Below, piece by piece: positions 8,116-43,012 of a DNA stretch of 53,512 nt. Every line of letters starts with the position of its first letter. The stretch's first letter is position 1. This DNA comes from Candidatus Woesearchaeota archaeon (GTDB lineage: Archaea > Nanobdellota > Nanobdellia > Woesearchaeales > JACPBV01): contig JAHWHQ010000035.1 in NCBI GenBank assembly GCA_019323195.1, positions 1 to 53,512 of the forward strand, read 5' to 3'. A model generated the notes under the pieces. It worked only from the letters and a program-made list of their open reading frames with translations. It had not been told where the DNA came from and did not search any database. The position numbers and the translations under genes were made by a program.

Positions 8116-8122
8116 CCATAAA

Positions 8123-11981: not shown

Positions 11982-12126
11982 TGGGACCTGCGGAATTTGA
12001 ATCCGCGACACCTAGATCTCTGATAATCATCGGCAGATGCCTCATCAGATCTTTTCTGCTCTGGTCTGGAATCTTCAGTTTCACCTTTTTAAAAACTAGT
12101 GCTCTCCCAGGCTGAGCTAAGGTCCC
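11982..12126 (-). tRNA. intron-containing tRNA (isotype unresolved; Lys-UUU or an anticodon-UUA species depending on splice model)
   Basis: The reverse complement gives acceptor GGGACCU/AGGUCCC+A, D arm GCUC-AGCCUGGGA-GAGC and T arm GCGGA-UUCAAAU-UCCGC. Total length is 145 nt, so about 71 nt between CUAGU-UUUUAAA and CUAG-GUGUC must be an intron. Confidence 0.8.
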
Positions 12127-22792: not shown

Positions 22793-24466
22793 ATGAAGAA
22801 AATAGTCTTATTTGCACTTATGCTTTTGTTTTTGACCCCGGTAATATTCGCTGAGGAGTATGTTATTGTCAATTCTGAGGACTGGAGGGATGTTTATTCT
22901 GCAATGCTGTACGGGAGCCTTAGCGGCAGGGGAGTGAGCTTTCTTGTGAGCGACAGGCACAGCACACTTATACTTGGCTCAATACCGAAAGAAACCTCTA
23001 TTATAGCAATGAGCTCCAGGAAATCCCCCTTTATCATAGGGTACGGGGCTGTGCTGGAGAACAGCGGGTATGATACTGAAGAGGTGGTATATGACGGGTT
23101 TAACCTGGAGGTTGCAAGGCTGCTGGATGTTGAGAATTATATCATAGTAGATGATTCTTACGGGTATAATGCTGTCAGCGTAGCGCCATATGCGGTCGTT
23201 TCTGATTCCTATGTTCTGTTTGCAGACAGGGGAAATATCAGGGAGATCGACTCTTTTTTAAGCGAAAGGAATGTCGGCAATCTGCTGATATACGGCAATG
23301 TGGACAGGCAGGTGAAGGAGGCTTTGGCGCGGTATGATCCTGAGATCATAAACAAGGACGGGGACAGGTTTGCCAATAACATAGAGATCGTGAAGAAATA
23401 CCAGAAGATTAAGAATGCAAAGCAGGTTATGCTTACGAACGGGGAGTTTATAGAGAAGGAGGTAATGTCAGGGGCTGAGCCTGTTATCTTTATAGGGGCG
23501 AATAATGTTCCTGACCAGGTAAGGGACTATATACAGAGCACTGACATTGAGATTGGGGTGCTTGTAGGAAACGAGCTTGTAGGGACAGCCACCTACATAA
23601 GAAGGAACGTGGGGATAAGCGTTTTTGTCAAGTTTGCACAGGGAGCAAGGGCGCCTAAGGGGGCGATCTCGCAGGTGGAGGCGCTGGACATGTTCTATCT
23701 TCCTGTCTACTCGCTTAACATCGAGGTGGATTCAATAAAATATAACAAGGCAACAAACCAGCTCGAAGTTAATATCAAGAATACCGAAGACCAGGCTGTC
23801 TATTTCAAGGGCACCTATTCAATCATGGGGGACGGCGCAGAGCAGAAGGTGGGCGACATAGACCCAATATTCCTTGACGGCAATGAGATCAAGACGGTTG
23901 TCTATGACCTTGAGCCGATAACCGGAGAGGAGATAAGGGCTGATGTCTACATCATCTACGGGGAGTCAAAGGGCTCTATGGAGAAGGTGATAGACCTTAG
24001 CATGACTATAGAACTGGTGGAGATATATGATAAATGCGAGATATCTCTGAATGACCTAAGGTATAATAAGAGAAAAGGCGTATTCTATATTGAGGTCGAA
24101 AACACGGCTGATGTAGACTGCTATGTTGATGTGGAGCTGGTGGACCTTTTGATCAATTCTGAGACAAGGAGCTTTAGCGCAGATGATGTTCTGCTGCTTA
24201 AGCCAGGGGAAAAGAATAAGCAGAGGATCAAGGCAAAGCTCGAGGAGGAGGATATAGAGGATAATGACATCATCAATGCAAGGGCCTATTACGGGGAAAG
24301 GAGCGACAGCCTGGTGAAGCTTATCGAGGCTGAGTTTGAGCTGGCCTTTGAGGATATAGACTATGTCTCATATTCACTGCTGCTGATAATAATACTGCTT
24401 ATACTGCTTATCATCTGGAGAAGGTACCAGAACAGGAAAGAGAGGAAGAAGAAGAAGCGTTCTTAG
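22793..24466 (+). CDS. surface-anchored protein with signal peptide, three alpha/beta (CWB2-like?) N-terminal repeats and a C-terminal TM anchor
   Basis: Signal peptide MKKIVLFALMLLFLTPVIFA. Repeated Y(V/I)IV(N/D)..... modules. C-terminal TM LLLIIILLILLIIW followed by the basic tail RRYQNRKERKKKKRS. Confidence 0.65.
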   Translation: MKKIVLFALMLLFLTPVIFAEEYVIVNSEDWRDVYSAMLYGSLSGRGVSFLVSDRHSTLILGSIPKETSIIAMSSRKSPFIIGYGAVLENSGYDTEEVVYDGFNLEVARLLDVENYIIVDDSYGYNAVSVAPYAVVSDSYVLFADRGNIREIDSFLSERNVGNLLIYGNVDRQVKEALARYDPEIINKDGDRFANNIEIVKKYQKIKNAKQVMLTNGEFIEKEVMSGAEPVIFIGANNVPDQVRDYIQSTDIEIGVLVGNELVGTATYIRRNVGISVFVKFAQGARAPKGAISQVEALDMFYLPVYSLNIEVDSIKYNKATNQLEVNIKNTEDQAVYFKGTYSIMGDGAEQKVGDIDPIFLDGNEIKTVVYDLEPITGEEIRADVYIIYGESKGSMEKVIDLSMTIELVEIYDKCEISLNDLRYNKRKGVFYIEVENTADVDCYVDVELVDLLINSETRSFSADDVLLLKPGEKNKQRIKAKLEEEDIEDNDIINARAYYGERSDSLVKLIEAEFELAFEDIDYVSYSLLLIIILLILLIIWRRYQNRKERKKKKRS

Positions 24467-24514: not shown

Positions 24515-24928
24515 TCAATCTAATCTTTTTTTGATAATGGCTTTTAGTTTTTTAACTATTGCCTGAATATCTTTTATTTTCCTTTTAATGTAATCCTTGT
24601 CGATAAAAAATCCATCATATGCAATCTTATTTCTTGTTATCCTCAGATCATCAATCAAAGAGACCTCATACTCGTTAAACTCTTTATAATTGGATTGGAG
24701 GTATTCAACTAATTTTTTATGTGCTCCTTCACCATAAGTCTTGTAGCCGTCAAGTAGAAGAACAATACTCATTAACTCTCTGATTATATCATAATATTCT
24801 TTTGTTACATTGGAACTAAATTTAGCTACATCAATGATCTTAATCATCTCTATAGTGGTATCAACCATCTTTAGGATAGATTGTGCTTTTTCCTTATTTG
24901 GTGTTATCTTTATCATACCTTCTTCCAT
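24515..24928 (-). CDS. HEPN domain protein (toxin partner of the MNT gene)
   Basis: 137-aa all-helical protein with the R(I)TRNKIAY motif region. Overlaps the upstream nucleotidyltransferase gene by 16 nt. Confidence 0.65.
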   Translation of the reverse strand: MEEGMIKITPNKEKAQSILKMVDTTIEMIKIIDVAKFSSNVTKEYYDIIRELMSIVLLLDGYKTYGEGAHKKLVEYLQSNYKEFNEYEVSLIDDLRITRNKIAYDGFFIDKDYIKRKIKDIQAIVKKLKAIIKKRLD

Positions 24929-25497
24929 TTTGACATTTGCACCCTTAAGTACCCTTTTAACTTATCACCATTGATAATATTATTCTTTAATTCTTCGCTG
25001 ATCTTATTGAAGTTCTTTTCAAAGAATAAATTTATCTTTCTGTTTAATTCTTTCTCGTATTTGCCTAAATCCAGCTTCTTTTCATCACATTGCAAATATA
25101 AATCAATATCACTACCTTTAATATCTTCTCCTTTTGAGGCAGAACCAAATAAAACTATCACATCAGGCATACATTGCTCATTTAAATAATTCAACAAACC
25201 AGATTCTTCTATGGATATAATCATATCTATTTTCTTAAGAAATCTAAATACTTCACTTGCCCTATTTGCCCAGTAAACAGGATAACCATGTATTCTATGT
25301 TTAGAGCTTATAACCAAAGGAGCGCCATATCCCTCATCTTTGCATAATTCATTTAGGTAGTTCTTTACTGAAGTTGGAGCCAAATCTGTTTTTCTGCTAA
25401 TCTCTCTGAGTTGAAAACCTGCTCCCTTAGGGTTTGGATCATCAAAAAAGACCTTCAATATTTTCCACTTGTTATACTTTTGTAACATATGTAACAA
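24913..25497 (-). CDS. nucleotidyltransferase (MNT) domain protein with N-terminal wHTH
   Basis: The LFGSASKGEDIKGSDIDL motif (GS-x9-DxD) preceded by a wHTH-like N-terminus. Confidence 0.75.
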   Translation of the reverse strand: MLHMLQKYNKWKILKVFFDDPNPKGAGFQLREISRKTDLAPTSVKNYLNELCKDEGYGAPLVISSKHRIHGYPVYWANRASEVFRFLKKIDMIISIEESGLLNYLNEQCMPDVIVLFGSASKGEDIKGSDIDLYLQCDEKKLDLGKYEKELNRKINLFFEKNFNKISEELKNNIINGDKLKGYLRVQMSKWKKV

Positions 25498-25602: not shown

Positions 25603-27966
25603 TCAACCTTCCAGCAGAATCATTATCTCTTCCTTTTTCTGGGTTTTTCTCAGCTTCTCTGCCAGCTCCTTGTTGACAGGGGCTATCCAGTCAGCGAAGT
25701 CGTTCTTTTCCGCATTTACGTGCTTGCTTAATACGTCATCGTCCATGGTGTTGATGGAGTCGATAAGCTCCTGGATGCTCCTTACGGTTGTTCCGTTCTT
25801 GAGCTTTAAGGGGGCAAGCTCAGGGCCTTTCTTGGCAGGCGGAGCTGCTGCTGCAGGCGCTGGAGCCCCTTTAGCTGCTCCAGCCGCAGCACCTGCCTTT
25901 GCTTTTGCCTGCTCATTTTTCTCGTATTCCTCCCTTGCCTTCTTCGCCTTTTCGAACTCCTTCTTCAGCTCCTCTTCAGCTACGAGCTTGATCTTTCTCT
26001 TCTCAGGCTTTTTCCCGAGCTTTTTCCAGTGGTCCTCCAGCCTTGGCTTGAGGCCTTCAAGGTAGATGTCTACCATGTTAAATGATCCTGACTTTACCTT
26101 GTCAAGGGCCATCTTAAGCTCGAGCTTGATGTCAAATACGTCTATCCCCTCTTTTTTAAGCTGCTCGATCTGGTAGTCCAGGTCATCTATCAGGTCGTTG
26201 TACTTGTTGTAGTTCTCAAGCTCGTCGTCGCTCAGCCTTGCATGCTCATGCATAAGGGGCCTGAAGGTGACGAAGTAAGGGTTGCCGCGGTTATAGGCGG
26301 AGTTCTCTATCATTCCTGTGCCAGTGGATGCCTTAAGCAGGGACTGGAGCATATAGCCGCCGTACTTGTTCTTGATCCTGTCCAGGTCACCCTGGTCACG
26401 CGTCCTCATCTGGATCTCGGTGTTGATGTTGGCTTTTGTCTCGCCGACAAAGTCTGTCAGTACCTGGCTGATAAGCATCAGGCCTACGCCCCATTTCCTG
26501 AACTCCCTTGCAGCCCTCTCTATCTGGATGAAGCCCTGGCCGGAGCCGCCGAACTTGGGCAGGAGCCTGTGGACCTCGTCGAATATTATCATGAGCTTGA
26601 GCTCAGGGGACTCAGGAAGGTTGGCATGGAATACCTCCCTCATGGTGTTTGCGACCAGTGTATCTATGTCCCCCGGATCGAGCCTGTTGATGGCGAAGGA
26701 GTGGATCTCGCCGGGGATCATGTATTTCTTTATGTCTATGATCTGCCTTGCATCCATGATCTGGTGGATATTGCCGTTGAAGGCCTTTGCATCTGTCTTC
26801 TTCATGCCGAATTTTGGGTAGAGGGCTATCATCTTCTTGTTCTGGCATTTTCTCAGGAAGCCTGTCCACTGGGCAGTAGGGTCAAAGACGATGACAGCGA
26901 CATTCTTCTCTAAAGCGCCTTCTATAAGGACCTCTGCCGAGACTGTCTTGCCTCCTCCTGTCGAACCGGCAATAAGGGTGTGCATCGTCAGCTGGTCGAT
27001 GTCAAAAAAGGCGTCTTTGTTCGTTTCGGCGATTTTTCCAATCTTTACTGACCTTGGGCCGGCTTTAGGCAATAATGAGAAATCAAGCTTGCCCTTGTAC
27101 CTTTTCCGCTTTTCCATCTGTCTCTTATAGACCAGGTAGATTACAGTGAACAGAGTTATGACGCATATGCTGAATATCACCCATCTCAGCGGAAGGATGC
27201 CAAGGATAAAATAGTCCATCACCTTTTCAGCTACAAAGAACCTGATGCTTGAATGGGAGGTTAAATCCAGATACTCTGCCTTTACAGTAAGGACATACTC
27301 TCCAGGCCTGACAAAGTCAGGAATGTCGAATTTCTTGAGCAGGGTTGCGGAGGTCTCTATGAATATGCCCTCGCTTTCGCTGAGGAATGACTTGTTCAGC
27401 TCATAGGTCTTTACATCCCCAAGCTTATCTATCGAATAATGCAGCGTGACATTAAACGCTTTTTCAACCAGAAGGTTCTGAATGTCAATACGGTACCTGA
27501 ATGAATCACCGAGGTAGACCCTTTTTGTGAGTGCTTCAAGCTCCATGCTGATGGCCTCTACGGAGGAGCCTAACGAGTCGACATTGAGGATGACGGGTAT
27601 CGCCTCGCTAATGCCGCCGGAGATGGCTAATGTGCCGTTATAGAACCCCAGGTGGTCTGCAAAGAAGGTTATGTTTATGGCATTCTCCGAGTCATGCCCT
27701 ATGTTCATCCTCTGGGTGCTTAGCTGGAGGTATTCTGAGACATTGCCGCTCAAGGAGAAGTATACGCTTATCGTTTCAGCCCTGTTGTTCTTTATCCTGA
27801 GGGGGACATCCTTGTAGTTGCCTATCTTCATCCTTTCCCTCATGGAACTGGATGAGATCTCATAGTCCCTTGTCTTTATCTGGGCTGAAACATTCCCTAT
27901 GGAGCAGAGGGCGAAAACTGCAAATATCAGGAAGTATGCTAGACCTATCACCCTTTTTTTGCTCAT
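25603..27966 (-). CDS. membrane-anchored HerA/FtsK-like (DUF87-type) ATPase with an extracytoplasmic N-terminal domain
   Basis: Signal/TM MSKKRVIGLAYFLIFAVFALCSIG, about 230 aa outside, then a second TM (RWVIFSICVITLFTVIYLVY). Walker A GSTGGGKT and Walker B MIIFDEVHRL. An Ala/Pro-rich linker precedes a small C-terminal domain. Confidence 0.8.
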   Translation of the reverse strand: MSKKRVIGLAYFLIFAVFALCSIGNVSAQIKTRDYEISSSSMRERMKIGNYKDVPLRIKNNRAETISVYFSLSGNVSEYLQLSTQRMNIGHDSENAINITFFADHLGFYNGTLAISGGISEAIPVILNVDSLGSSVEAISMELEALTKRVYLGDSFRYRIDIQNLLVEKAFNVTLHYSIDKLGDVKTYELNKSFLSESEGIFIETSATLLKKFDIPDFVRPGEYVLTVKAEYLDLTSHSSIRFFVAEKVMDYFILGILPLRWVIFSICVITLFTVIYLVYKRQMEKRKRYKGKLDFSLLPKAGPRSVKIGKIAETNKDAFFDIDQLTMHTLIAGSTGGGKTVSAEVLIEGALEKNVAVIVFDPTAQWTGFLRKCQNKKMIALYPKFGMKKTDAKAFNGNIHQIMDARQIIDIKKYMIPGEIHSFAINRLDPGDIDTLVANTMREVFHANLPESPELKLMIIFDEVHRLLPKFGGSGQGFIQIERAAREFRKWGVGLMLISQVLTDFVGETKANINTEIQMRTRDQGDLDRIKNKYGGYMLQSLLKASTGTGMIENSAYNRGNPYFVTFRPLMHEHARLSDDELENYNKYNDLIDDLDYQIEQLKKEGIDVFDIKLELKMALDKVKSGSFNMVDIYLEGLKPRLEDHWKKLGKKPEKRKIKLVAEEELKKEFEKAKKAREEYEKNEQAKAKAGAAAGAAKGAPAPAAAAPPAKKGPELAPLKLKNGTTVRSIQELIDSINTMDDDVLSKHVNAEKNDFADWIAPVNKELAEKLRKTQKKEEIMILLEG

Positions 27967-28058
27967 CTTTTTTCTTATGGTTTATAAAGTTTTAAACTCT
28001 TTGAGTTCTAAACCGATTAAAAATCTTCTATTTTTGATAGTTTAAAAATGAAATTTTA

Positions 28059-31000
28059 TTATGCTGCTATCTTCCTGTGCAGCTCATTGCACCTTTGGAC
28101 TACGCCTGACTTGAATTCCTGCGGGATCTTCTTATATATATGGGAGACCTGCCTGTAGATCAGGGATGCCTCCTTCCGCTGGTTGTTCTCAAGGCTGAAA
28201 TTGGCCTTGTCAATAAGCTTGTTAATATGGAAGACATCTAATTTATTTGAGAGGAGGGTTACCTTCTCATAAACCTCTTTTTTAATCTCTTTCGGAAGCT
28301 GCCTGAAAAACTCATTGATGCTCCTGTAGGCTGCCTTTGCCTTTTCATACTCGCTGTTCTGCAGATGGGCCAGGCCCTCCTCGAGGTGCCTGTTTATCTC
28401 TTTTATGTGCTTCATAGAGCCCCTGCCTTTGACCAGGAGCCTTATCTTTTTAAATCCTCCGCTGAATCCAATGTATGTGAGGGCAAGTATTATGATTATT
28501 ATCACCTCTATAACCAGTCTTGCATTGTTGGGCTGGATGATCCTTAACGGAAGATCGCCAAGGACCGCGAAGCCGATAACGGGGTTCCTTTTGGTCAGAT
28601 CATCAGAAACCAGGATGGACTTTATCTCCCTGGCTTTGTCCATATCTATCTTCTTCCTGATATAGTAGGAGTATTTTTCTGCCGGCATATCAAGCTTGAT
28701 TATGGGGTCTTCAAGGATGGTGGCATACTCAAACTGCGCATTTATATGGGAGGTGTTGGGAGCTATGCTTTTTGGGATCCACTCTATAAGGGCTGTATCC
28801 TTCAGATCATCTTCTGCCATGATATCTTTTTCTATCAATGTTATATCCCCCTTGTCCCCTGAGATATACTCCGCTTCTATATAGCTTGTTTTTGTCGTTA
28901 TCTTGACCAATTTCTGCAGCTCCTGGTTATAGGCCGCGTAAGACTCCATTTCCTTGTTTTTGTACTTCTTTTTCATGAACTCCAGGAATGTGAAGGATAT
29001 ATTTGTTATGTCCTCTTTGCCGGGGTAATCGATGAATTCCTTTGACTCAGCAACCCTGATAGCCTTTATGGTGCGGCTTTTTATGCCCCTTATCCTGTCA
29101 TATATGGAGTTTCTTAGCTCCTCTTCCCCGCTCTGGTTCAGCCTTCTCCATATGATGTTGTGAAGGTCGCGCTTTGCCATCTGAAGCTCTTTTTTTGACT
29201 TTTCAAGGTGTTTTTCCAGGCCAAGGGCGGCGGCAGCGTCCTTCTCTTTCTTGTCCAGGTAATTAAGGTCTGACAGCGAGCTGTCTATGATCTTTATTGC
29301 ATTATCTATCGAGATGTCCTCTTCTGTGACAACTGTTATGTTGACATGGAATCTTTTGGTCTCGCTTATCCTTGAGTTTCCGAACCTGTCAACGCATTCA
29401 ACCTTCCACTGGTAATCCCTGTTCTCCAGGTTTTCTATGGTAAATGAGTTCTCGCTTCCGCTTGCTATGTTCTCTTTATGCCCCTGCTCTACCCACCAGC
29501 TGTCGCCCATGTTGGCGTATAGTGTGCAGTTGACGCTGGAACGGTCAAATACCTTGTAGGTTATGACAGCGCTGCCCTGGGTGATGGCTGCATCATTTTC
29601 AGGGCCGAACAGTTCTATGACAGGATCCTCGTTATCGAGTTCATATATGGGCAGCTTTACCCCTATCGTTGCGCTGCTTTTTATGTCGGTGGTGTTGGAG
29701 AATGAGCTATAGCCGTCTTTCTCTACGATGAGCTTACGGCTGCCTTTATTTACCTCAAATGAGGCCTTGCCTTCGCTGCTTGTATTTTTCTTGACATAAT
29801 CGAATTCAACATCCGCGTTTTCAATCGCCTGGCCGGATTCGTTCTTTACTATGATGGTGACGTTGAATACCTCTCTTACTGTTATCGCACTTGCAGCTGA
29901 CCTCTTCCATTCTTCCCAGGCTATGGTGAGGTTTGCGGTGTAGGTCCCGTTTGAGCTGTAGGTGTGGGATGGTCCTGAAGCGGATGATGAAGAGCCGTCG
30001 CCGAAATCCCAGCTATAGCTGCTTCTGGGGCTTGTATTGCCGCTTGCAGATGCAGTGAACCTTATCGTTTCACCCCTGTCTATAGCGGTTGCGTTTGAGC
30101 TGATGCTCAGGATTAGGGGGTTTCCTGAGGTGTCATTAACATAGAAGAAGATGCTCTTGTTCTCGCTGTGGCTCATATAATGCATCACTGCATCTATCGT
30201 GTAGTTCCCCGGGGAGTTGATGTTCTGCAGGGCTTTTATGACCCATATCATAAGGCCGGGTGAATAAGGCGTTATAAAGTCGCTTTCCACTATGCTGCCT
30301 TCGAGAAGGACAGTGAGGTTTACCATGGAGTTGGCCCTTGATATTACGGTTATGGAGACGTCTTCCCCTAGTTCATAGTGGGTTTTATCAGTGCTTATGT
30401 TGAACCCTATGCAGGAAGGGCATGAGCCGCCGCAGTCAATGCCCTGCTCATCTCCGTTTTTTATCCCGTCTGAGCAGGAAGGCAGGAAGGTAAAGTTTAT
30501 GCTGTAGCTTATAATCCTGTAGTTTCCCTGCATGTCGCTTATGTTTATCGTGAGGTTGTTTAGGCCGGTTTCAACTTCTATGCTGAATGTACTGGCCTTT
30601 TCCCAGCCCAGGCTCAGGGTTGTGGGATCTTCATTATTTATGCTGTGTGATATGCTGCTGTATTCATCGGAAGATATCGTTATCTCGACAGCACCTGATG
30701 TTCCGTTTATTCCGGATACTGGACCAGGGCTTAACTGCATGCCTCCTGCTGTGGCATTTATACCAGGGGCAGTTGAGTCGTTTACTGTAAAATAATGGAT
30801 GTGGTTTGTTATGTTGGAACTGTTGTCCATAAGGTAGATGGTTATGTTGTGCAGGCCGTTTTTTATCACGCCATATTCTAATGAGCCGTTTAGTTTTGAT
30901 GAAAAGGAGTTCCCTTCCACTGAGGGTTCGGCATACCTGTCATCAAATAGGTAGCCTGCGCTTACTGTTATATTCGTTGTAAAATTAAGATAAACATCTT

Positions 31001-32144
31001 CCCCGCTTTCAAGAGAACTGTCATTCTCAGGGCTTATTACATCAAGGTTTATCGTTGAGGTGTTCAGGACCAGTATTACTGAGGAGAAGTGGGGTATGAA
31101 GACCACTACTTTTTCTCCTTCCTCGATGTAGCAGCTTTCTTTTTCATCGCTGCACATCTTTATCGGTGAGCACTGGTATAGGTCATTGCAGTACATGACA
31201 CCGCTGTAGGCTGCGTCTTTGATGTCAAACTCCACAATGCCGTCATAGCTTTCTTCATCTATTATGCCATCCATGCCCTTAAGTGAGATGGACTTTTTCG
31301 GGATAAGGCGCATGTCTTTTATGCGCCTGCTAGCTACATTGTCTTCTGCATCTAATGATACCTTTTCAAGGTTCTGCCAGTTCAGGTTTTCTTCTTTGAA
31401 ATTGTTTATGGAGGCTGTTACGCCGTCGTCAGCATAAAACTTCATCTTAAGGGGCCTGTTCTTAAGGCTGCCGCCTACCTTGTTGCCTTTTGTGTCTGTA
31501 AGGTCTATTTTCTTGAGCCTGTTCTTCTCTTTTATCTTCTCGAACGAGCTTAGCGTGGCGAGGTAGCCTTTGTCTGATGTTGTGTTGCTGGATACTGCAT
31601 CGCTGAAGTAGTTGTTGTCAAGATAGACTGCATACAGGTAGTCTTTTTCGCTGTAATATATGTCAGAGTAAAGGTTGTTTATGTCCAGGCTGTAGTCAAG
31701 ATAGATGACCTGGGCATAAACCTTGTTGTTCCTGGAGGAGCCGTACTTGCTGTACTGTAGATATAACGGCTCATCCCATTCCTGCTTTTCGGGGTAGAGG
31801 TCTATGAATGAGCAGCATCTGGAGCTGCCATGGCATAGGGGGGTGGTCCTGCCATTGTCCACTGAATAGACGTCCCATCTTGTGCAGAGATTTTTTTGCT
31901 CAGCATCCCAGCTGAACCCTGTATCCTCTACAGTGAAGTCTATAGCAGCACTGTCAGATTCGATGCCGTTGTCATCGCTGTCCCAGACAGAGCCTGACTT
32001 GTATTCCAGCTCAATCGAGATTGTTTTTGACGGGTTGGATTTTGTGAATTCCACATTCGATACGAGGAGGAGGGCCAGCATGAAGGCCAGAATAAAGGCT
32101 CTTTTTTTGCTTATCAAACCCGGAAAAAACTGTTTTGCGTTCAT
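28059..32144 (-). CDS. giant (1361 aa) surface protein with a PKD domain, C-terminal TM and helical cytoplasmic tail
   Basis: N-terminal signal/TM. PKD signature YSWDFGDGSSSSASGPSHTYSSNGTYTANLTI. A Cys-rich segment SCSDGIKNGDEQGIDCGGSCPSC. TM LVIEVIIIIILALTYIGF near residue 1190. Confidence 0.8.
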   Translation of the reverse strand: MNAKQFFPGLISKKRAFILAFMLALLLVSNVEFTKSNPSKTISIELEYKSGSVWDSDDNGIESDSAAIDFTVEDTGFSWDAEQKNLCTRWDVYSVDNGRTTPLCHGSSRCCSFIDLYPEKQEWDEPLYLQYSKYGSSRNNKVYAQVIYLDYSLDINNLYSDIYYSEKDYLYAVYLDNNYFSDAVSSNTTSDKGYLATLSSFEKIKEKNRLKKIDLTDTKGNKVGGSLKNRPLKMKFYADDGVTASINNFKEENLNWQNLEKVSLDAEDNVASRRIKDMRLIPKKSISLKGMDGIIDEESYDGIVEFDIKDAAYSGVMYCNDLYQCSPIKMCSDEKESCYIEEGEKVVVFIPHFSSVILVLNTSTINLDVISPENDSSLESGEDVYLNFTTNITVSAGYLFDDRYAEPSVEGNSFSSKLNGSLEYGVIKNGLHNITIYLMDNSSNITNHIHYFTVNDSTAPGINATAGGMQLSPGPVSGINGTSGAVEITISSDEYSSISHSINNEDPTTLSLGWEKASTFSIEVETGLNNLTINISDMQGNYRIISYSINFTFLPSCSDGIKNGDEQGIDCGGSCPSCIGFNISTDKTHYELGEDVSITVISRANSMVNLTVLLEGSIVESDFITPYSPGLMIWVIKALQNINSPGNYTIDAVMHYMSHSENKSIFFYVNDTSGNPLILSISSNATAIDRGETIRFTASASGNTSPRSSYSWDFGDGSSSSASGPSHTYSSNGTYTANLTIAWEEWKRSAASAITVREVFNVTIIVKNESGQAIENADVEFDYVKKNTSSEGKASFEVNKGSRKLIVEKDGYSSFSNTTDIKSSATIGVKLPIYELDNEDPVIELFGPENDAAITQGSAVITYKVFDRSSVNCTLYANMGDSWWVEQGHKENIASGSENSFTIENLENRDYQWKVECVDRFGNSRISETKRFHVNITVVTEEDISIDNAIKIIDSSLSDLNYLDKKEKDAAAALGLEKHLEKSKKELQMAKRDLHNIIWRRLNQSGEEELRNSIYDRIRGIKSRTIKAIRVAESKEFIDYPGKEDITNISFTFLEFMKKKYKNKEMESYAAYNQELQKLVKITTKTSYIEAEYISGDKGDITLIEKDIMAEDDLKDTALIEWIPKSIAPNTSHINAQFEYATILEDPIIKLDMPAEKYSYYIRKKIDMDKAREIKSILVSDDLTKRNPVIGFAVLGDLPLRIIQPNNARLVIEVIIIIILALTYIGFSGGFKKIRLLVKGRGSMKHIKEINRHLEEGLAHLQNSEYEKAKAAYRSINEFFRQLPKEIKKEVYEKVTLLSNKLDVFHINKLIDKANFSLENNQRKEASLIYRQVSHIYKKIPQEFKSGVVQRCNELHRKIAA

Positions 32145-32425
32145 CTGGATACGGCCTCTTTTTTTATCTCTTTCTTTATGCTTTCAAGCTCGCTGATTAT
32201 CTCCAGCTTTACGAGCTTTTCACTCCTTTTCCTGAGCTCTTCTTTTATGTCCTGCTTCAGTTTCCTGAGCTCCTCCAGTTCAGGGTTCCTGGAGCTTAGC
32301 CAGCGGTCCCTTACGATGCTCCTTATCTCCTCGCTTATGTCCATGTAATGGTCCTTTTCAGCTGACCTTTTCAGCTCTGATAAAAGTGATCCAGGAAGCC
32401 TTACAGAGACCATTACCTCATCCAT
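32141..32425 (-). CDS. ribbon-helix-helix protein with coiled-coil tail
   Basis: Starts at the internal ATG (MDEVMVSVRLPGSLLSELKRSAEKDHYMDISEEIRSIVRDRW...). Its stop overlaps the start of the giant gene by 4 nt. The track's 29-aa N-terminal extension overlaps the upstream RHH gene. Confidence 0.6.
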   Translation of the reverse strand: MDEVMVSVRLPGSLLSELKRSAEKDHYMDISEEIRSIVRDRWLSSRNPELEELRKLKQDIKEELRKRSEKLVKLEIISELESIKKEIKKEAVSR

Positions 32426-32588
32426 CCTGCACCTCTTTCTCCCTTGCTGCGAGGTATTTCCTGCTGTAATCGCGGATAGCCTCTGACCTGCTCTTGTAAA
32501 TCCCGCGCTCAATCAGGGAATCCAGCCATAGAACTATCTCTTTAGGAAGCCTTACGTTTAATGTTTGGATCTCTATTGTATTTGTCAT
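32418..32588 (-). CDS. ribbon-helix-helix (CopG-like) protein
   Basis: 56-aa ORF not in the track: MTNTIEIQTLNVRLPKEIVLWLDSLIERGIYKSRSEAIRDYSRKYLAAREKEVQDG. This is a classic CopG pattern. Overlaps the next RHH gene by 8 nt. Confidence 0.6.
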   Translation of the reverse strand: MTNTIEIQTLNVRLPKEIVLWLDSLIERGIYKSRSEAIRDYSRKYLAAREKEVQDG

Positions 32589-32824
32589 GTAATCTTATTG
32601 TATTCTTTCTGTATTCATTTCTCTTTTATATGTTTTTTCTTATGTTGCTTTTATATTGATTATTTTATGTTTTTATTGTATTTATCACGTAATTTTATTG
32701 TAAGATTTATTCTTGTATTTAAAGCTTTCGGAAAAATGCCTTGTGCTATTTTGCTGGATTTAACTTTCCTAACTCCAAAGTGATATAATAAATATTAAAT
32801 ACTATAGAATGAAATGCTGTCCTG

Positions 32825-41449: not shown

Positions 41450-43012
41450 TCAACCCTGGCTTTTCTGCCTGTTGAAGTCATTAGCCCTCTGGACGTCTAC
41501 AGGGTAAAGGTCCTTGTCTACTATCACTGTGCTCTTTACCCTGTTCTTGCCCTCTGCCTTTGCCGTGTACAATGACTTGTCTGCCTCTTTTATAAGCTCA
41601 ACTGCAGAGATGGACCTGTCCATGCATGTAATCAGGCCGGCGCTTATCGTTATCGTTTTCAGCGGCTGGTCTTCCTTGCCGAAGAAGCTGTTCTCTTCTA
41701 TCTTTTTCCTTATCTTCTCTATCATGTCAAAGGCAACATTGCTGTTGGTGTCTAATGATATTATGATGAACTCCTCTCCTCCGTACCTGCCGACAACGTC
41801 GCTCTCCCTTGTCTCGTCTTTTATTATCTTTGCTATATCCTTCAGCAATGAATCGCCCCTTATATGGCCGTGGGTGTCGTTGTAGTGCTTGAAATCGTCT
41901 ATGTCCATGAGGGTTATGGAGAGGGGGTTCCTCAGCCTGACGCTTCTTATCATCTCCATCTCAAGGATGTTCATGAAGAATTCGCGGTTGTAAAGGCCTG
42001 TCAATTTGTCGGTTATCGCCTTGTTCTTTATCTTTTCAAGGTTCTGGGAGTTTAATACGGCCATGGAGATCTGGTCAGAGAGAACCCAGAGGAAGTTCAG
42101 GTCGTCTTTTTTTGTCTTATTTGTGGGGTAGAGGTAGAATATGACGCAGCCCATCATGTTGCTGTTTATGATAAGGGGTATGGCTATGAGGCTGTGCGGG
42201 AGGTAGCTTATGCCCTTGTTCCTGAACCGTGGGTCGTCCTGGAGGCTGTCTACCTTTACTATCTTTTTTGAGCTTAGTATCTCTTTTTCTATTATCTCCT
42301 CTATCTTGTCATAGCCGGTCTTCTCTTTTTTTGCTTTATCGCTGCTGAATATTATAACAGAGCAGTCTTCGATGTATATTATCTTTCTTATGTTCTCCTT
42401 GACCTTTTCCAGGGTCTTTGACAGCTCGGTGACATGGCTTACTGACTGGGCTACCTTGTGGAGGATGTTCAGCTCCTCGATCCTTCTTTCACTCATCTTT
42501 TTCTGGTGCACCAGCTCAGGCAGTGTGGTGGACAGAAGGGACAGTATCCTGGAGTATTCCTTTATCTTTTCCTCCTTGGTTGCGGGGATGGTGCTTATGT
42601 TCTCGAGCAGCTCTTCGCTTTCGATGCCTATCTCCCTGCTGAGGCTGTCGAATACTGCCTGGTCTATGCGCTCTTTGAGGATAGCGCCGCAGATGACTGC
42701 GCCAACCTGCTCGCCCTTTACTTTTATGGGGGCTATTATGTTGAGAAGGCCTGCATGGCAGTAGTATAAGATGAGCTTCCTGCCCTCTTTTTCCAGCCTT
42801 TCCATGAACTTCAGCCTGCAGCTGCGGCATGATGAAAGGCCCTTGTCTTTTGACTTTATGACCTGGCAGAAGAAAGGGAACTCTTTTGAGCTGGAGATCT
42901 CCTCGCCTTTTCTGTCGACTGTGTAGACGACTGTTTCGATGGATTCTGAGAAATTGTCCTGGAGGCTGTTCCATAGTTCCATGTCAAGGGTCTCGCTGAT
43001 TTTCCCGTCCAT
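41450..43012 (-). CDS. PocR-GAF-GGDEF diguanylate cyclase
   Basis: The N-terminal PocR-like FFCQVIKSKDKGLSSCRSCR...YYCHAGLLNIIAPIKVKGEQVGAVICG is followed by a central GAF-like region. The C-terminal GGDEF domain has RYGGEEF and an RESD (RxxD) I-site 5 residues upstream. Confidence 0.85.
   Translation of the reverse strand: MDGKISETLDMELWNSLQDNFSESIETVVYTVDRKGEEISSSKEFPFFCQVIKSKDKGLSSCRSCRLKFMERLEKEGRKLILYYCHAGLLNIIAPIKVKGEQVGAVICGAILKERIDQAVFDSLSREIGIESEELLENISTIPATKEEKIKEYSRILSLLSTTLPELVHQKKMSERRIEELNILHKVAQSVSHVTELSKTLEKVKENIRKIIYIEDCSVIIFSSDKAKKEKTGYDKIEEIIEKEILSSKKIVKVDSLQDDPRFRNKGISYLPHSLIAIPLIINSNMMGCVIFYLYPTNKTKKDDLNFLWVLSDQISMAVLNSQNLEKIKNKAITDKLTGLYNREFFMNILEMEMIRSVRLRNPLSITLMDIDDFKHYNDTHGHIRGDSLLKDIAKIIKDETRESDVVGRYGGEEFIIISLDTNSNVAFDMIEKIRKKIEENSFFGKEDQPLKTITISAGLITCMDRSISAVELIKEADKSLYTAKAEGKNRVKSTVIVDKDLYPVDVQRANDFNRQKSQG

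What the first reader, a model, noticed from the sequence alone, without database searches (positions are those of the whole stretch)
25603..32588. Operon of two RHH proteins, a 1361-aa PKD surface protein and a membrane-anchored HerA/FtsK-like ATPase: candidate cell-surface DNA/macromolecule translocation or attachment system
There are four co-directional minus-strand genes.
- The first three are coupled by overlaps: the RHH genes 32588->32418 and 32425->32141 overlap by 8 nt, and the second RHH gene overlaps the giant gene (32144->28059) by 4 nt.
- The ATPase gene (27966->25603) follows after about 90 nt.
- The ATPase has an unusual layout: signal/TM, an about 230-aa outside domain, a second TM, then a cytoplasmic Walker A/B (GSTGGGKT, IIFDEVH) HerA/DUF87-type core, an Ala/Pro linker and a small C-terminal domain.
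- The giant protein is also a bitopic surface protein. It has a PKD domain, a Cys-rich module, and a cytoplasmic helical tail.

Membrane-bound HerA-like ATPases are the motors of the crenarchaeal Ced DNA-import system. Pairing such a motor with a giant adhesin-like protein in a putative episymbiont-like archaeon suggests a contact-dependent uptake or export machine. I do not recognise this gene combination as a described system.
Basis: partly seen in the sequence, partly recalled or inferred. Interest (0 to 1): 0.7.

Follow-up and report, generated by a model that had tools for sequence, protein, structure and literature searches.

The report
Membrane HerA-like ATPase surface operon
A four-gene operon conserved in Woesearchaeota (tiny DPANN archaea) pairs two small DNA-binding proteins and their 11-bp repeat array with a large glycosylated surface protein and a membrane-anchored HerA-type motor ATPase; I found no description of it, and it is a good candidate for a machine that moves DNA or another polymer at the cell surface.

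Summary

- **Genes.** Four co-directional minus-strand genes have the stated overlaps (8 nt, 4 nt) and a 92-nt gap.
- **ATPase.** It has the stated topology and motifs.
- **Synteny.** In 78 related loci from species-representative genomes, 51 show the same RHH1-RHH2-surface protein-ATPase order by strict criteria. Two more show it by eye, and 10 more are cut by contig ends. About seven lack it.
- **Fold.** The cytoplasmic domain (model pLDDT 88) is closest to the HerA dsDNA translocases, then SIR2-HerA, TcpA, FtsK and EccC, at about 15% identity. It is not a HerA-NurA, Ced, FtsK or T4SS member.
- **Family.** The family (414 representatives at E<=1e-30) always has [ectodomain]-TM-ATPase. Ectodomains run from about 250 to about 5,600 aa.
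- **New cis element.** TACA motifs spaced exactly 11 bp apart cover the operon's promoter and start codon. They are conserved across the family and are the likely RHH binding sites.
- **C-terminal domain.** The ATPase's C-terminal domain is an OrfY/DUF5752-like module.

Function is inferred, not shown. The most likely reading is an autoregulated, envelope-spanning, contact-related polymer (probably DNA) translocase. No paper was found that describes it.

The parts
32714..32730 (-). BRE/TATA-like promoter element (cgaaagctttaaataca) upstream of the operon. A second TATA-like element, acatataaaag, lies at about 32622-32632.
   Evidence: Read directly. A similar (c)GAAAgnTTTAtATA element is present upstream of RHH1 in the homologous loci printed. 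No promoter activity was tested.
32677..32702 (-). Distal iteron cluster: three 11-bp-phased TACA/TACG motifs (T at 32702, 32691, 32680).
   Evidence: It is part of a 29-nt direct repeat (32674-32702 and 32574-32602, 90% identical). The family-wide 11-bp phasing is shown.
32577..32613 (-). Proximal iteron cluster: four TACA motifs exactly 11 bp apart (T at 32613, 32602, 32591, 32580). The third overlaps the RHH1 ATG and the fourth lies in codons 3-5.
   Evidence: In one search the pattern TACA-N7-TACA-N7-TACA gave 4 hits in 53.5 kb, all at this site, against 0.17 expected. Searches show conservation.
32418..32588 (-). RHH1, a 56-aa ribbon-helix-helix protein.
   Evidence: Pfam RHH_1 3.3e-6. 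Profile versus NikR N-terminal domains in the PDB 2e-7. N11, R13, R34, R39 and R43 are invariant. Conserved in position in 51+ loci.
32141..32425 (-). RHH2, a 94-aa ribbon-helix-helix protein with a C-terminal helical (coiled-coil-like) extension. It overlaps RHH1 by 8 nt.
   Evidence: hhalign against the RHH1 family gives probability 95.7%, E 1e-8. Weak NikR hits. Conserved in position.
28059..32144 (-). GIANT, a 1361-aa bitopic surface glycoprotein.
- Signal peptide: aa 1-34.
- Variable N-terminal part: aa 35-560.
- Conserved core: aa ~560-1361.
- Cys-rich module: aa 557-578 (nt 30411-30476).
- PKD domain: aa 679-742 (nt 29919-30110).
- CarboxypepD_reg-like: aa 762-819.
- Ig-like domain: aa 835-935.
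- Uncharacterised membrane-proximal module: aa 940-1200.
- TM: aa 1210-1228 (nt 28461-28517).
- Cytoplasmic helical TPR-like tail: aa 1229-1361 (nt 28062-28460).
   Evidence: One search shows that the C-terminal roughly 800 aa is the part conserved in 85-96% of 68 homologues. Searches found no known family for the membrane-proximal module or the tail.
25603..27966 (-). Membrane-anchored HerA-clade ATPase, 787 aa.
- Signal peptide or anchor: aa 1-28.
- Two Ig-like ectodomains: aa 31-250 (nt 27217-27876).
- TM: aa 262-280 (nt 27127-27183).
- P-loop core: aa ~300-575.
- Walker A: aa 334-341 (nt 26944-26967).
- Walker B: aa 460-466 (nt 26569-26589).
- Helical bundle: aa 580-690.
- Disordered Ala/Pro linker: aa 690-718.
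- OrfY/DUF5752-like C-terminal domain: aa 720-787 (nt 25606-25809).
22793..24466 (+). p557, a possible accessory: a 557-aa bitopic protein (signal peptide, C-terminal TM, polybasic tail) of unknown family. It is a conserved neighbour of the short-type operons.
   Evidence: Homologues lie within a few kb in 10 loci. They are convergent directly after the ATPase in L001, L005, L007 and L015. No family or structure hit was found. Membership in the system is not established.

Best explanation
SHOWN
- This is one conserved operon of Woesearchaeota (DPANN archaea). Relatives of its ATPase also occur in MAGs labelled Pacearchaeota, Aenigmatarchaeota and Altiarchaeota.
- It encodes four proteins:
  - two paralogous ribbon-helix-helix proteins;
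  - a Sec-exported, sequon-rich (probably N-glycosylated) type-I surface protein, whose conserved parts are its membrane-proximal module, its TM and a cytoplasmic helical tail;
  - a type-I membrane protein with two Ig-like domains outside and, inside, a catalytically intact HerA-clade P-loop ATPase, followed by a helical bundle, a flexible linker and a small OrfY/DUF5752-like domain.
- The 5' region carries two clusters of TACA motifs spaced exactly 11 bp apart, one helical turn. They cover the promoter region and the RHH1 start codon.

INFERRED
1. RHH1 and RHH2 bind the iterons cooperatively on one face of the DNA and autoregulate the operon.
2. The ATPase forms a hexameric ring at the inner face of the membrane, as its structural relatives HerA, FtsK and TcpA do.
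3. Its six TM helices and ectodomains sit next to the giant protein. The giant's cytoplasmic tail and the ATPase's C-terminal domain are the likely contact points.
4. Together they form an envelope-spanning complex that recognises something outside the cell. The variable ectodomains, up to about 5,600 aa in relatives, point to this. The complex uses ATP to thread a polymer at the membrane. That polymer is most probably DNA, taken up from or exchanged with a partner cell.
5. The RHH-iteron complex may also act as a DNA site recognised by the motor, as oriT-TrwA does for TrwB and clt does for TraB.

Steps 2-5 are hypotheses.
For: Synteny
- 51 of 78 loci have the full ordered quartet by strict criteria. 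L025 and L034 also have it by eye. Ten more have GIANT-ATPase cut by a contig end. About seven are true exceptions, at least three of them second paralogues in genomes that carry the operon elsewhere.
- Genes overlap or abut in the window and in relatives.

Fold
- The cytoplasmic model has pLDDT 88 and pTM 0.86.
- Foldseek top hits are Sulfolobus HerA 4d2i (E 1.6e-11, TM 0.51) and T. kodakarensis HerA-NurA, then SIR2-HerA, TcpA, FtsK, DndH and EccC.
- The viral library gives HerA-like, FtsK-like and packaging ATPases.
- Sequence profiles agree.
- Catalytic residues are invariant.

Topology.

Family architecture
- There are 414 representatives at E<=1e-30. The ATPase is always C-terminal to a TM and to ectodomains of about 250 to about 5,600 aa.
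- The two membrane-proximal Ig-like domains are retained in 121 and 93 of 146 representatives, including those checked among the giant fusions (5 of 6 retain the first).

Iterons
- TACA occurs at 22.7 per kb against 3.2 per kb in controls, and only on the operon strand.
- 108 motif pairs are exactly 11 nt apart, 55 at 22 nt and 18 at 33 nt, against 1.3+-1.1 in shuffles.
- The phased triplet is found only at this site in the window (4 hits against 0.17 expected).
- In the loci where the operon lies near the 10-kb match position, the hit coordinates fall just upstream of RHH1; no exact match lies on the opposite strand in the 79 loci.

Other
- It is not viral or mobile: no relatives in IMG/VR, and it has housekeeping neighbours such as adenylate kinase.
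- The C-terminal domain matches the PDB entry OrfY, deposited as 'transcription factor' (E 2e-6), and DUF5752 in 19 of 20 members.
Against: - No function was tested, and no substrate is shown.
- The operon encodes no polytopic channel protein, pilin, relaxase or nuclease. A DNA path across the membrane would have to be made from single-pass helices only.
- RHH proteins with iterons over a promoter are fully explained by simple autoregulation.
- FtsK-HerA-fold ATPases also move proteins (EccC is among the hits) or act in defence. PADLOC mad8 (2e-17) and HerA models also hit.
- The ATPase has AT-rich TATA-like sequences in the 92-nt gap, so co-transcription in this genome is not certain.
- The giant-ectodomain paralogue examined stands alone, without RHH or GIANT genes, so the ATPase can work without them.
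- Hexamer formation and the tail-to-C-terminal-domain contact are assumptions.
Confidence: 0.4

Rival explanations
1. Chromosome segregation or anchoring (FtsK/Par-like). The RHH proteins form a centromere-like complex on the iterons. The membrane-bound HerA-like ring captures or pumps chromosomal DNA during division of these very small cells. The surface protein only positions the complex in the envelope.
For: - RHH plus two clusters of 11-bp iterons around a promoter is the layout of ParR-parC of plasmid R1 (own knowledge; the iteron data are).
- The fold is that of dsDNA pumps.
- The operon is widespread and syntenic among the sampled Woesearchaeota genomes, with housekeeping neighbours, which fits an essential function.
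- The flexible linker plus small C-terminal domain recalls the FtsK gamma domain.
Against: - A purely intracellular job does not explain the conserved extracellular Ig-like domains, or the huge, variable ectodomains (up to about 5,600 aa) fused to the same motor in relatives.
- No ParA, actin or tubulin partner is encoded.
- The C-terminal domain is not a recognisable wHTH.
- Whether the iteron site is unique in the genome or lies near the origin could not be tested.
Confidence: 0.15
2. Protein-handling machine. The ATPase works like T7SS EccC/EssC, or like an extraction or assembly motor. It exports, inserts, tensions or recycles the giant surface glycoprotein, or other surface or S-layer-like proteins such as p557. 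The RHH proteins are only regulators.
For: - EccC is among the structural matches.
- The ATPase is always adjacent or fused to large surface proteins.
- In long-type relatives it is followed by small proteins that share its C-terminal domain, at least two of the six read being tail-anchored, and by a coiled-coil protein. This looks like a structural envelope complex rather than a DNA-processing set.
Against: - The giant protein and the ATPase both carry ordinary Sec-type signal peptides, so no special exporter is needed.
- The closest structures by score are DNA translocases, not EccC.
- No WXG-like substrates were recognised.
Confidence: 0.15
3. Motorised or signalling adhesin with no transported substrate. 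ATP hydrolysis changes the conformation or clustering of the ectodomains and the giant protein, controlling attachment and detachment, or it reports outside contact to the cytoplasm.
For: - The ectodomain is fused in cis to the motor across the family, with extreme length variation typical of adhesins.
- PKD, Ig-like and CarboxypepD_reg-like domains are typical of attachment proteins.
Against: - I know of no precedent for a HerA/FtsK-fold ring acting without threading a polymer.
- Every one of the catalytic and ring-interface-type residues listed is invariant, which fits a processive motor.
Confidence: 0.12
4. Anti-virus defence system or relic of a mobile element built around a HerA ATPase.
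For: - PADLOC hits to mad8 (2.1e-17) and several defence HerA models.
- Defence HerA complexes are among the structural matches.
- An MNT/HEPN-like pair sits directly downstream in this window.
Against: - No effector partner (SIR2, DUF4297 nuclease and the like) is present.
- The operon is conserved in order across hundreds of species rather than patchy.
- It is absent from the viral contig collection.
- The MNT/HEPN pair is absent from the relatives.
- The hits cover only the generic P-loop core.
Confidence: 0.04

Closest known systems
Ced DNA-import system of Sulfolobales (CedB/CedD membrane-anchored HerA-clade ATPases; PMC11868833, PMC9905601)
   Same: - An archaeal HerA-clade P-loop ATPase tethered to the membrane by N-terminal TM segments.
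- The best NCBIfam partial hit is CedD (1.1e-9).
- A proposed role at the cell surface in DNA movement between cells.
   Different: - The score is 37.5 bits against a cutoff of 600, and the hit covers only the Walker A region.
- There is no CedA/CedE polytopic VirB6-like channel and no CedA1/A2 pilin-like proteins in the operon.
- Ced ATPases have a cytoplasmic VirB4-like N-terminal domain (PMC11868833). Here the N-terminal part is extracellular Ig-like domains.
- RHH genes, iterons and a giant surface protein are not mentioned among the Ced components in the passages of PMC11868833 read here.
HerA-NurA DNA end-resection helicase (PDB 4d2i, 9x1l/9x1m)
   Same: Closest solved structures for the cytoplasmic domain (E 1.6e-11, TM 0.51). 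Also the best PDB sequence-profile hit (3.3e-9).
   Different: - About 15% identity.
- No N-terminal HAS barrel; TM and ectodomains stand in its place.
- No NurA, Mre11 or Rad50 neighbours.
- NCBIfam HerA equivalogs score 22-35 bits against cutoffs of 800-970.
Conjugative coupling proteins with RHH accessory proteins at oriT (R388 oriT-trwA-trwB; pCW3 TcpA)
   Same: - A membrane-anchored FtsK/HerA-superfamily ATPase encoded downstream of RHH gene(s), whose likely binding repeats lie just upstream (layout recalled from own knowledge).
- TcpA is a structural match (5e-9).
- Pfam TrwB_AAD_bind and T4SS-DNA_transf just pass their cutoffs, over the Walker A region only.
   Different: - No relaxase, VirB4, VirB6 or pilin.
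- It is chromosomal, with housekeeping neighbours and no relatives in viral contigs.
- It has a large extracellular domain and a partner surface protein.
FtsK/SpoIIIE and Streptomyces TraB-clt
   Same: A membrane-bound ring motor, a flexible linker and a small C-terminal domain. A cis-acting repeat array lies next to the motor gene (TraB-clt; own knowledge). FtsK motor structures match (about 5e-8).
   Different: - Pfam FtsK_SpoIIIE scores 20.3 bits, below the cutoff of 24.
- One or two TM segments rather than four.
- The C-terminal domain is OrfY/DUF5752-like, not a gamma wHTH.
ParR-parC type partition/operator sites (RHH protein on phased 11-bp iterons)
   Same: RHH proteins sit next to two clusters of direct repeats with an exact 11-bp period that overlap their own promoter.
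   Different: No ParM or ParA partner. The downstream genes are a surface protein and a membrane HerA-like ATPase. Binding was not tested.
Type VII secretion ATPase EccC/EssC
   Same: A membrane-anchored FtsK-like ATPase working with bitopic proteins that have large ectodomains. The EccCb1 D2 domain is a structural match (1.3e-7).
   Different: One ATPase domain instead of three. No WXG100-like substrates, EccB/D/E or EssA/B. The hit is weaker than those to the DNA translocases.
OrfY / DUF5752 (PDB 4cso, Pfam PF19027)
   Same: The ATPase's last roughly 65 residues, and the N-termini of small proteins downstream of long-type relatives, match one repeat of this two-repeat protein (PDB profile hit 2e-6; 19 of 20 members hit PF19027).
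   Different: - It is a single copy used as a terminal module of a membrane ATPase.
- Its function is unknown. 'Transcription factor' is only the depositors' label.
- Scores of single sequences are below Pfam's cutoff (18-22 bits against 23).

Membership tests
FtsK-HerA superfamily, HerA clade (fold level) | RecA-like P-loop core with Walker A, Walker B (DE), a conserved polar residue (Q) at the end of the sensor strand and an arginine finger; structural similarity to HerA | tested here: met
   AGSTGGGKT, FDEVH, S500-Q501 and R521/R523 are invariant. Pfam DUF87 46.8 bits (cutoff 23.2) and HerA_C 29.4 (cutoff 22). Foldseek top hits are HerA.
HerA-NurA repair helicase | N-terminal HAS beta-barrel, soluble protein, adjacent nurA (usually with mre11/rad50); passes the NCBIfam HerA equivalog cutoff | tested here: not met
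   The N-terminus is a signal peptide, Ig-like domains and a TM. Neighbours are RHH, the surface protein and MNT/HEPN. HerA models score 22-35 bits against cutoffs of 800-970.
Ced system (CedA/A1/A2/B, CedD/E) | CedB/CedD equivalog-level similarity | tested here: not met
   CedD model scores 37.5 bits against a cutoff of 600, over residues 307-374 only.
Ced system (CedA/A1/A2/B, CedD/E) | Associated polytopic CedA/VirB6-like channel and small pilin-like CedA1/A2 | tested here: not met
   Within +-10 kb of 78 loci, family clustering recovered no polytopic membrane protein as a constant member of the cluster. A multi-TM family (fam13) lies upstream in 6 loci; a further 11-locus family (rank 6) was not examined. 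A trans-encoded partner elsewhere in the genome cannot be excluded.
Type IV secretion/conjugation (VirD4/TrwB-type coupling protein) | Full-length match to T4CP families; co-occurrence with relaxase, VirB4 and VirB6 | tested here: not met
   TrwB_AAD_bind 23.8 bits and T4SS-DNA_transf 21.1 bits pass their cutoffs only marginally, over 44-89 residues around Walker A. TraD models score 21-34 bits against cutoffs of 366-648. No relaxase, VirB4 or VirB6 families are conserved nearby.
FtsK/SpoIIIE | Pfam FtsK_SpoIIIE above cutoff; four N-terminal TMs; C-terminal gamma wHTH | tested here: not met
   20.3 bits against a cutoff of 24. There are two hydrophobic segments, the first signal-peptide-like. 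The C-terminal domain matches DUF5752/OrfY.
Type VII secretion (EccC/EssC) | Three tandem FtsK-like ATPase domains; WXG100 substrates; EccB/D/E or EssA/B partners | tested here: not met
   There is a single ATPase domain. No such partners appear among the conserved neighbours.
Ribbon-helix-helix (CopG/Arc/MetJ) DNA-binding proteins | N-terminal beta-strand followed by two helices; Pfam RHH_1 or profile similarity to solved RHH domains | tested here: met
   RHH1: RHH_1 27.3 bits (cutoff 20.5), and NikR RHH domains 2e-7. RHH2: hhalign to RHH1 gives 95.7%. DNA binding itself was not tested.
ParR/parC-type partition locus | RHH centromere-binding protein, phased iterons and a cognate ParM/ParA NTPase | tested here: not met
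   RHH and iterons are present. No actin-like or ParA-like NTPase is in the operon; the only NTPase is HerA-like.
HerA-based anti-phage systems (SIR2-HerA, DUF4297-HerA, MADS mad8) | HerA adjacent to an effector; patchy distribution in defence islands | tested here: not met
   PADLOC hits cover only the ATPase core, and the other three proteins have no hits. The operon has conserved synteny across species and is absent from viral contigs.
The new family itself (type-I membrane HerA-like ATPase of DPANN) | [variable ectodomain]-Ig-like e1-e2-TM-HerA-like core with FDPTAQW and REFRKWG motifs-helical bundle-linker-DUF5752-like C-terminal domain | tested here: met
   The window protein is the minimal form. 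414 representatives at E<=1e-30 have the ATPase C-terminal. e1 and e2 are found in 121 and 93 of 146 representatives.

The most novel reading that the evidence does not exclude
The operon encodes a previously unknown kind of contact-dependent trans-envelope DNA conduit of DPANN archaea.
- A hexameric HerA-like motor has its own six single-pass helices and Ig-like ectodomains. In relatives these are extended into fibres of thousands of residues.
- Together with the giant glycoprotein they form the extracellular part of the machine, which docks on a partner cell and pumps DNA in or out. Import could serve as a nucleotide or gene source.
- The RHH-iteron nucleoprotein complex at the operon's 5' end serves as both the switch and the DNA site recognised by the motor's OrfY-like C-terminal domain.

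This would be a DNA-transfer system built without VirB6-, ComEC- or pilin-type components.
Probability: 0.15. Interest if true: 0.9.

Novelty: new variant of a known kind. Interest (0 to 1): 0.66.

Why it matters
**The open question.** DPANN archaea have tiny genomes and lack most nucleotide, lipid and energy metabolism. They are thought to live attached to other cells. How they take material from partners is an open question, and almost no molecular machinery has been assigned to it.

**What this offers.** Its motor family also occurs in MAGs labelled Pacearchaeota, Aenigmatarchaeota and Altiarchaeota. It joins a DNA-pump-type ATPase directly to cell-surface domains, sometimes thousands of residues long. 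It therefore gives concrete, testable candidates for partner recognition and polymer transfer:
- a motor;
- a partner surface protein;
- two regulators;
- a defined DNA element.

**If the function is internal instead.** If the role turns out to be chromosome handling or envelope assembly, this would still be a new architecture within the FtsK-HerA superfamily, and the iteron/RHH pair would be a clean archaeal regulatory module to study.

Tried and rejected
1. Foldseek of the full-length ATPase model (pLDDT 71) was swamped by Ig-like matches to the ectodomain (ASH/SPD-2, RbmA, transglutaminase). It confirmed the beta-sandwiches but not the ATPase class. I re-modelled residues 285-700 separately.
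2. The word-indexed homologue search with the giant protein's C-terminal 542 aa returned a single hit and was uninformative. Family data for it come from the fetched loci instead.
3. Pfam, NCBIfam and PDB profile searches of the giant protein's membrane-proximal module plus tail gave nothing significant. The best hit was a bacterial dynamin helix at E 0.01, and the weak J-domain-like hits lack an HPD motif, so I rejected them.
4. p557 has no family or structure hit.
5. Literature searches for CedD/CedB, DPANN+HerA, DUF87+DPANN, DUF5752, OrfY, and DPANN+DNA uptake found no description of this operon.
6. RHH1's similarity to CdrS (25 bits against a cutoff of 100) is generic RHH similarity, so I did not treat it as a cell-division link.
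7. The MNT/HEPN-like pair at 24515-25497 is not part of the system. It is absent from the relatives.
8. A viral or mobile origin was checked and not supported.
9. The exact 8-mer ATACAATA alone is not significantly enriched in the window (5 against 2.3 expected, with 9 of 100 shuffles reaching 5). The signal lies in the 11-bp phasing, not the word count.

Full report
**Observation.**
- RHH1 is 32588->32418 (56 aa). RHH2 is 32425->32141 (94 aa). They overlap by 8 nt (ATGGATGA).
- RHH2 overlaps the 1361-aa gene (32144->28059) by 4 nt.
- The 787-aa ATPase gene (27966->25603) follows after 92 AT-rich nt that contain TATA-like strings.
- The ATG starts are supported by homologue alignments in which M1 is invariant.

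**The two small proteins.** RHH1 passes Pfam RHH_1, and its family profile matches the RHH domains of NikR structures (2e-7). RHH2 has no Pfam hit, but its profile aligns to RHH1's with 95.7% probability (E 1e-8). It carries an extra C-terminal helical segment. They are therefore paralogous RHH proteins, as claimed.

**The ATPase.**
- Hydropathy, the positive-inside rule (8 K/R after the second hydrophobic segment) and six sequons between the segments support this order: N-terminal signal peptide or anchor (6-24...NVSA/Q), outside domain, TM 262-280, cytoplasmic remainder.
- The full-length model (pLDDT 71) shows two beta-sandwiches (35-130 and 139-246). Their Foldseek matches are tandem Ig-like/ASH/FnIII-type domains.
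- A separate model of residues 285-700, built from 21 homologues, is confident (pLDDT 88, pTM 0.86). Its best PDB matches are Sulfolobus HerA (4d2i; E 1.6e-11, TM 0.51) and the Thermococcus HerA-NurA complex. SIR2-HerA, the coupling protein TcpA, FtsK, DndH and EccC follow. The viral library returns HerA-like, FtsK-like and packaging ATPases.
- Sequence searches agree: DUF87 and HerA_C pass their Pfam cutoffs, while FtsK_SpoIIIE does not. NCBIfam CedD, HerA and TraD models give only partial hits of 20-38 bits against cutoffs of 366-970. PDB profile hits are HerA proteins.
- Walker A, Walker B, the sensor Gln and two Arg are invariant.
- It is therefore a catalytically intact, highly divergent (about 15% identity) HerA-clade ATPase. 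It lacks the HAS barrel and has no NurA partner.
- After a helical bundle and a disordered Ala/Pro linker comes a folded domain of about 65 aa (720-787). The profile of this domain hits one repeat of OrfY (PDB 4cso; E 2e-6). Nineteen of 20 members hit Pfam DUF5752.

**The giant protein.**
- It has a signal peptide and more than 30 sequons in the ectodomain.
- It has a Cys-rich module at 557-578, which corresponds to MopE-type metal-binding motifs in a relative.
- It has a PKD domain (8.7e-16), a CarboxypepD_reg-like domain, a further Ig-like domain, a TM at 1210-1228 and a 133-aa helical, weakly TPR-like cytoplasmic tail.
- Across 68 homologues only the C-terminal roughly 800 residues are conserved (85-96% coverage). 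The N-terminal roughly 560 residues are variable.
- The membrane-proximal module (940-1200) and the tail match no known family or structure.

**Relatives and synteny.**
- The ATPase has more than 800 homologues in the word-indexed search. All named ones come from Woesearchaeota or Nanoarchaeota MAGs and are annotated only as DUF87 or HerA-like.
- HMMER on their ORFs shows the ordered, same-strand quartet in 51 loci by strict criteria. L025 and L034 also have it by eye. Ten more are truncated by contig ends. About seven are true exceptions. At least three of those (L050, L055, L057) are second paralogues in genomes that carry the full operon on another contig.
- The ATPase comes in a short form (about 780 aa, as here) and a long form (about 1300 aa, with extra CarboxypepD_reg-like ectodomains). 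Some genomes place both in tandem.
- Long-type operons continue with one to three small proteins whose N-terminus is the same DUF5752-like module as the ATPase C-terminus. At least two of the six read in full are tail-anchored. A 355-aa coiled-coil protein follows them. None of these is in this window.
- In short-type loci a bitopic 557-aa protein is a frequent neighbour. Here it lies at 22793-24466, separated from the ATPase by an MNT/HEPN-like pair that the relatives lack.

**Family architecture.**
- A full HMMER scan of 1.84 billion representatives with the cytoplasmic-domain profile found 414 proteins at E<=1e-30.
- In those listed, the ATPase is C-terminal and is preceded by a TM and ectodomains from about 250 to about 5,600 aa. 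Proteins reach 6,253 aa.
- The two membrane-proximal Ig-like domains are recognisable in 121 and 93 of 146 representatives. Among six giant fusions checked, five retain the first domain and two the second.
- Named members come from Woesearchaeota, Pacearchaeota, Nanoarchaeia, Aenigmatarchaeota and Altiarchaeota MAGs.
- One 4,862-aa fusion stands alone, without RHH or giant-protein genes.
- The window's protein is therefore the minimal form of a DPANN-wide family of surface proteins with a cytoplasmic HerA-like motor.

**A new cis element.**
- Upstream of RHH1 there are two clusters of TACA motifs spaced exactly 11 bp apart. The distal cluster has T at 32702, 32691 and 32680. The proximal cluster has T at 32613, 32602, 32591 and 32580. 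The third proximal motif overlaps the start codon.
- The phased triplet occurs four times in the 53.5-kb window, all at this site, against 0.17 expected.
- In 52 homologous upstream regions TACA is seven-fold enriched over 119 control intergenic regions, on the operon strand only. There are 108 motif pairs exactly 11 nt apart, 55 at 22 nt and 18 at 33 nt. Shuffles give 1.3+-1.1.
- All exact triplet matches in the 79 loci are on the operon strand. In the loci where the operon lies near the 10-kb match position, the hit coordinates fall just upstream of RHH1.
- One-turn phasing of direct repeats over a promoter is the classic binding mode of RHH proteins. Binding by RHH1 and RHH2 is inferred, not shown.

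**Interpretation.** The shown facts are:
- a conserved, tightly packed operon;
- a Sec-exported glycoprotein with a conserved cytoplasmic tail;
- a type-I membrane HerA-clade ATPase with conserved outside domains;
- an RHH/iteron module.

I consider an autoregulated, envelope-spanning complex most likely (confidence about 0.4). In it a hexameric motor at the inner membrane face is coupled to outward-facing recognition domains, and it threads a polymer, probably DNA.

Two arguments support this reading. First, the closest structural relatives by score (HerA, TcpA, FtsK) are DNA translocases; the protein translocase EccC and defence-type HerA assemblies rank lower in the same list. Second, an internal function would not need conserved, and in relatives enormous and variable, ectodomains fused to the motor.

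The weak points are these:
- The operon has no channel-forming polytopic protein, pilin, relaxase or nuclease.
- The iterons are sufficiently explained by autoregulation.
- The fold also occurs in protein translocases and defence systems.

The rivals are chromosome segregation or anchoring (0.15), protein handling or envelope assembly (0.15), a substrate-less motorised adhesin (0.12) and defence or a mobile relic (0.04).

**Comparison with known systems.** At the fold level the ATPase is a member of the FtsK-HerA superfamily, HerA clade. It fails the membership tests for HerA-NurA, Ced, T4SS coupling proteins, FtsK/SpoIIIE, T7SS EccC, ParMRC and HerA-based defence systems (see the membership table). 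It works most like Ced or coupling-protein ATPases, which are membrane-tethered HerA/VirD4-type motors. Its regulatory layout most resembles RHH-iteron modules such as oriT-TrwA-TrwB or ParR-parC; those layouts are recalled from my own knowledge.

**Novelty and score.** No paper in the searchable library describes the operon, the ATPase family's architecture or the iterons. I classify it as a new variant of a known kind (membrane-anchored FtsK/HerA-superfamily motor systems), with a realistic chance of being something more distinct. Interest is 0.66:
- It is widespread in a major uncultivated lineage.
- Its architecture is unusual.
- It bears directly on the open question of how DPANN cells interact with partners.
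- Its function is still entirely inferred.

Noticed in passing
window 32577-32613 and 32677-32702 (minus strand); the same position upstream of RHH1 in L001-L078: An array of TACA motifs with an exact 11-bp period lies in two clusters over the operon promoter and the RHH1 start codon. It is conserved across the family: 108 motif pairs exactly 11 nt apart in 52 upstream regions, against about 1 in shuffles. It is the likely RHH operator or recognition site.
   Followed up: yes
proteins P0127-P0266; locus L079 10001-24589: The same ATPase core sits at the C-terminus of giant surface proteins of up to 6,253 aa (ectodomains up to about 5,600 aa) in Woesearchaeota and Aenigmatarchaeota MAGs. One 4,862-aa example stands alone, without RHH or giant-protein genes.
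   Followed up: partly
L022 12838-14761, L031 12847-14668, L059 12844-15179 and other long-type loci: Downstream of long-type ATPases lie one to three small proteins whose N-terminus is the same DUF5752/OrfY-like module as the ATPase C-terminus. At least two of the six read in full have a coiled coil and a C-terminal TM. A conserved 355-aa coiled-coil protein follows them. None of these is present in this window.
   Followed up: partly
window 24515-25497 (minus strand): An MNT-like nucleotidyltransferase (194 aa) and a HEPN-like partner (137 aa; PADLOC PDC-M05A/B) overlap by 16 nt. They are inserted between the ATPase and p557 and are absent at this position in relatives. This is probably a toxin-antitoxin or defence pair.
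   Followed up: partly
window 22793-24466 (+): A 557-aa bitopic protein (signal peptide, C-terminal TM, polybasic tail) matches no known family. It is a conserved neighbour of the short-type operons in 10 genomes.
   Followed up: partly
window 41450-43012 (minus strand): A PocR + GAF + GGDEF protein (GGDEF E 4e-41), i.e. a predicted diguanylate cyclase. From my own knowledge, this is unusual in an archaeal genome. It could be a horizontal acquisition or a binning or assembly issue.
   Followed up: no
window 32825-34615 (+) and 39664-41436 (+): A glycogen synthase (PF05693, 6e-160) is transcribed divergently from the operon, and an amylo-1,6-glucosidase (GDE_C) lies nearby. Glycogen synthase is also near the operon in L011, L014 and L019. 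I recalled DUF5752 as occurring with alpha-glucan or trehalose genes, but that association was not checked. The link may be coincidental.
   Followed up: no
window 5830-10306 (+): A 761-aa T2SSE-type (type IV pilus/archaellum-like) ATPase is followed by a 727-aa ORF without Pfam hits. This may be a pilus-like surface apparatus about 18 kb from the operon.
   Followed up: no
window 11982-12126 (minus strand): Rfam finds a tRNA spanning 145 nt (46.6 bits), while ARAGORN reports none. It is probably an intron-containing archaeal tRNA.
   Followed up: no
window 34729-35369 (+): An 87-aa ORF is followed, with a 1-nt overlap, by a 125-aa ORF that has a weak ParE-toxin hit (7e-4, below cutoff). This may be a second toxin-antitoxin-like pair.
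   Followed up: no
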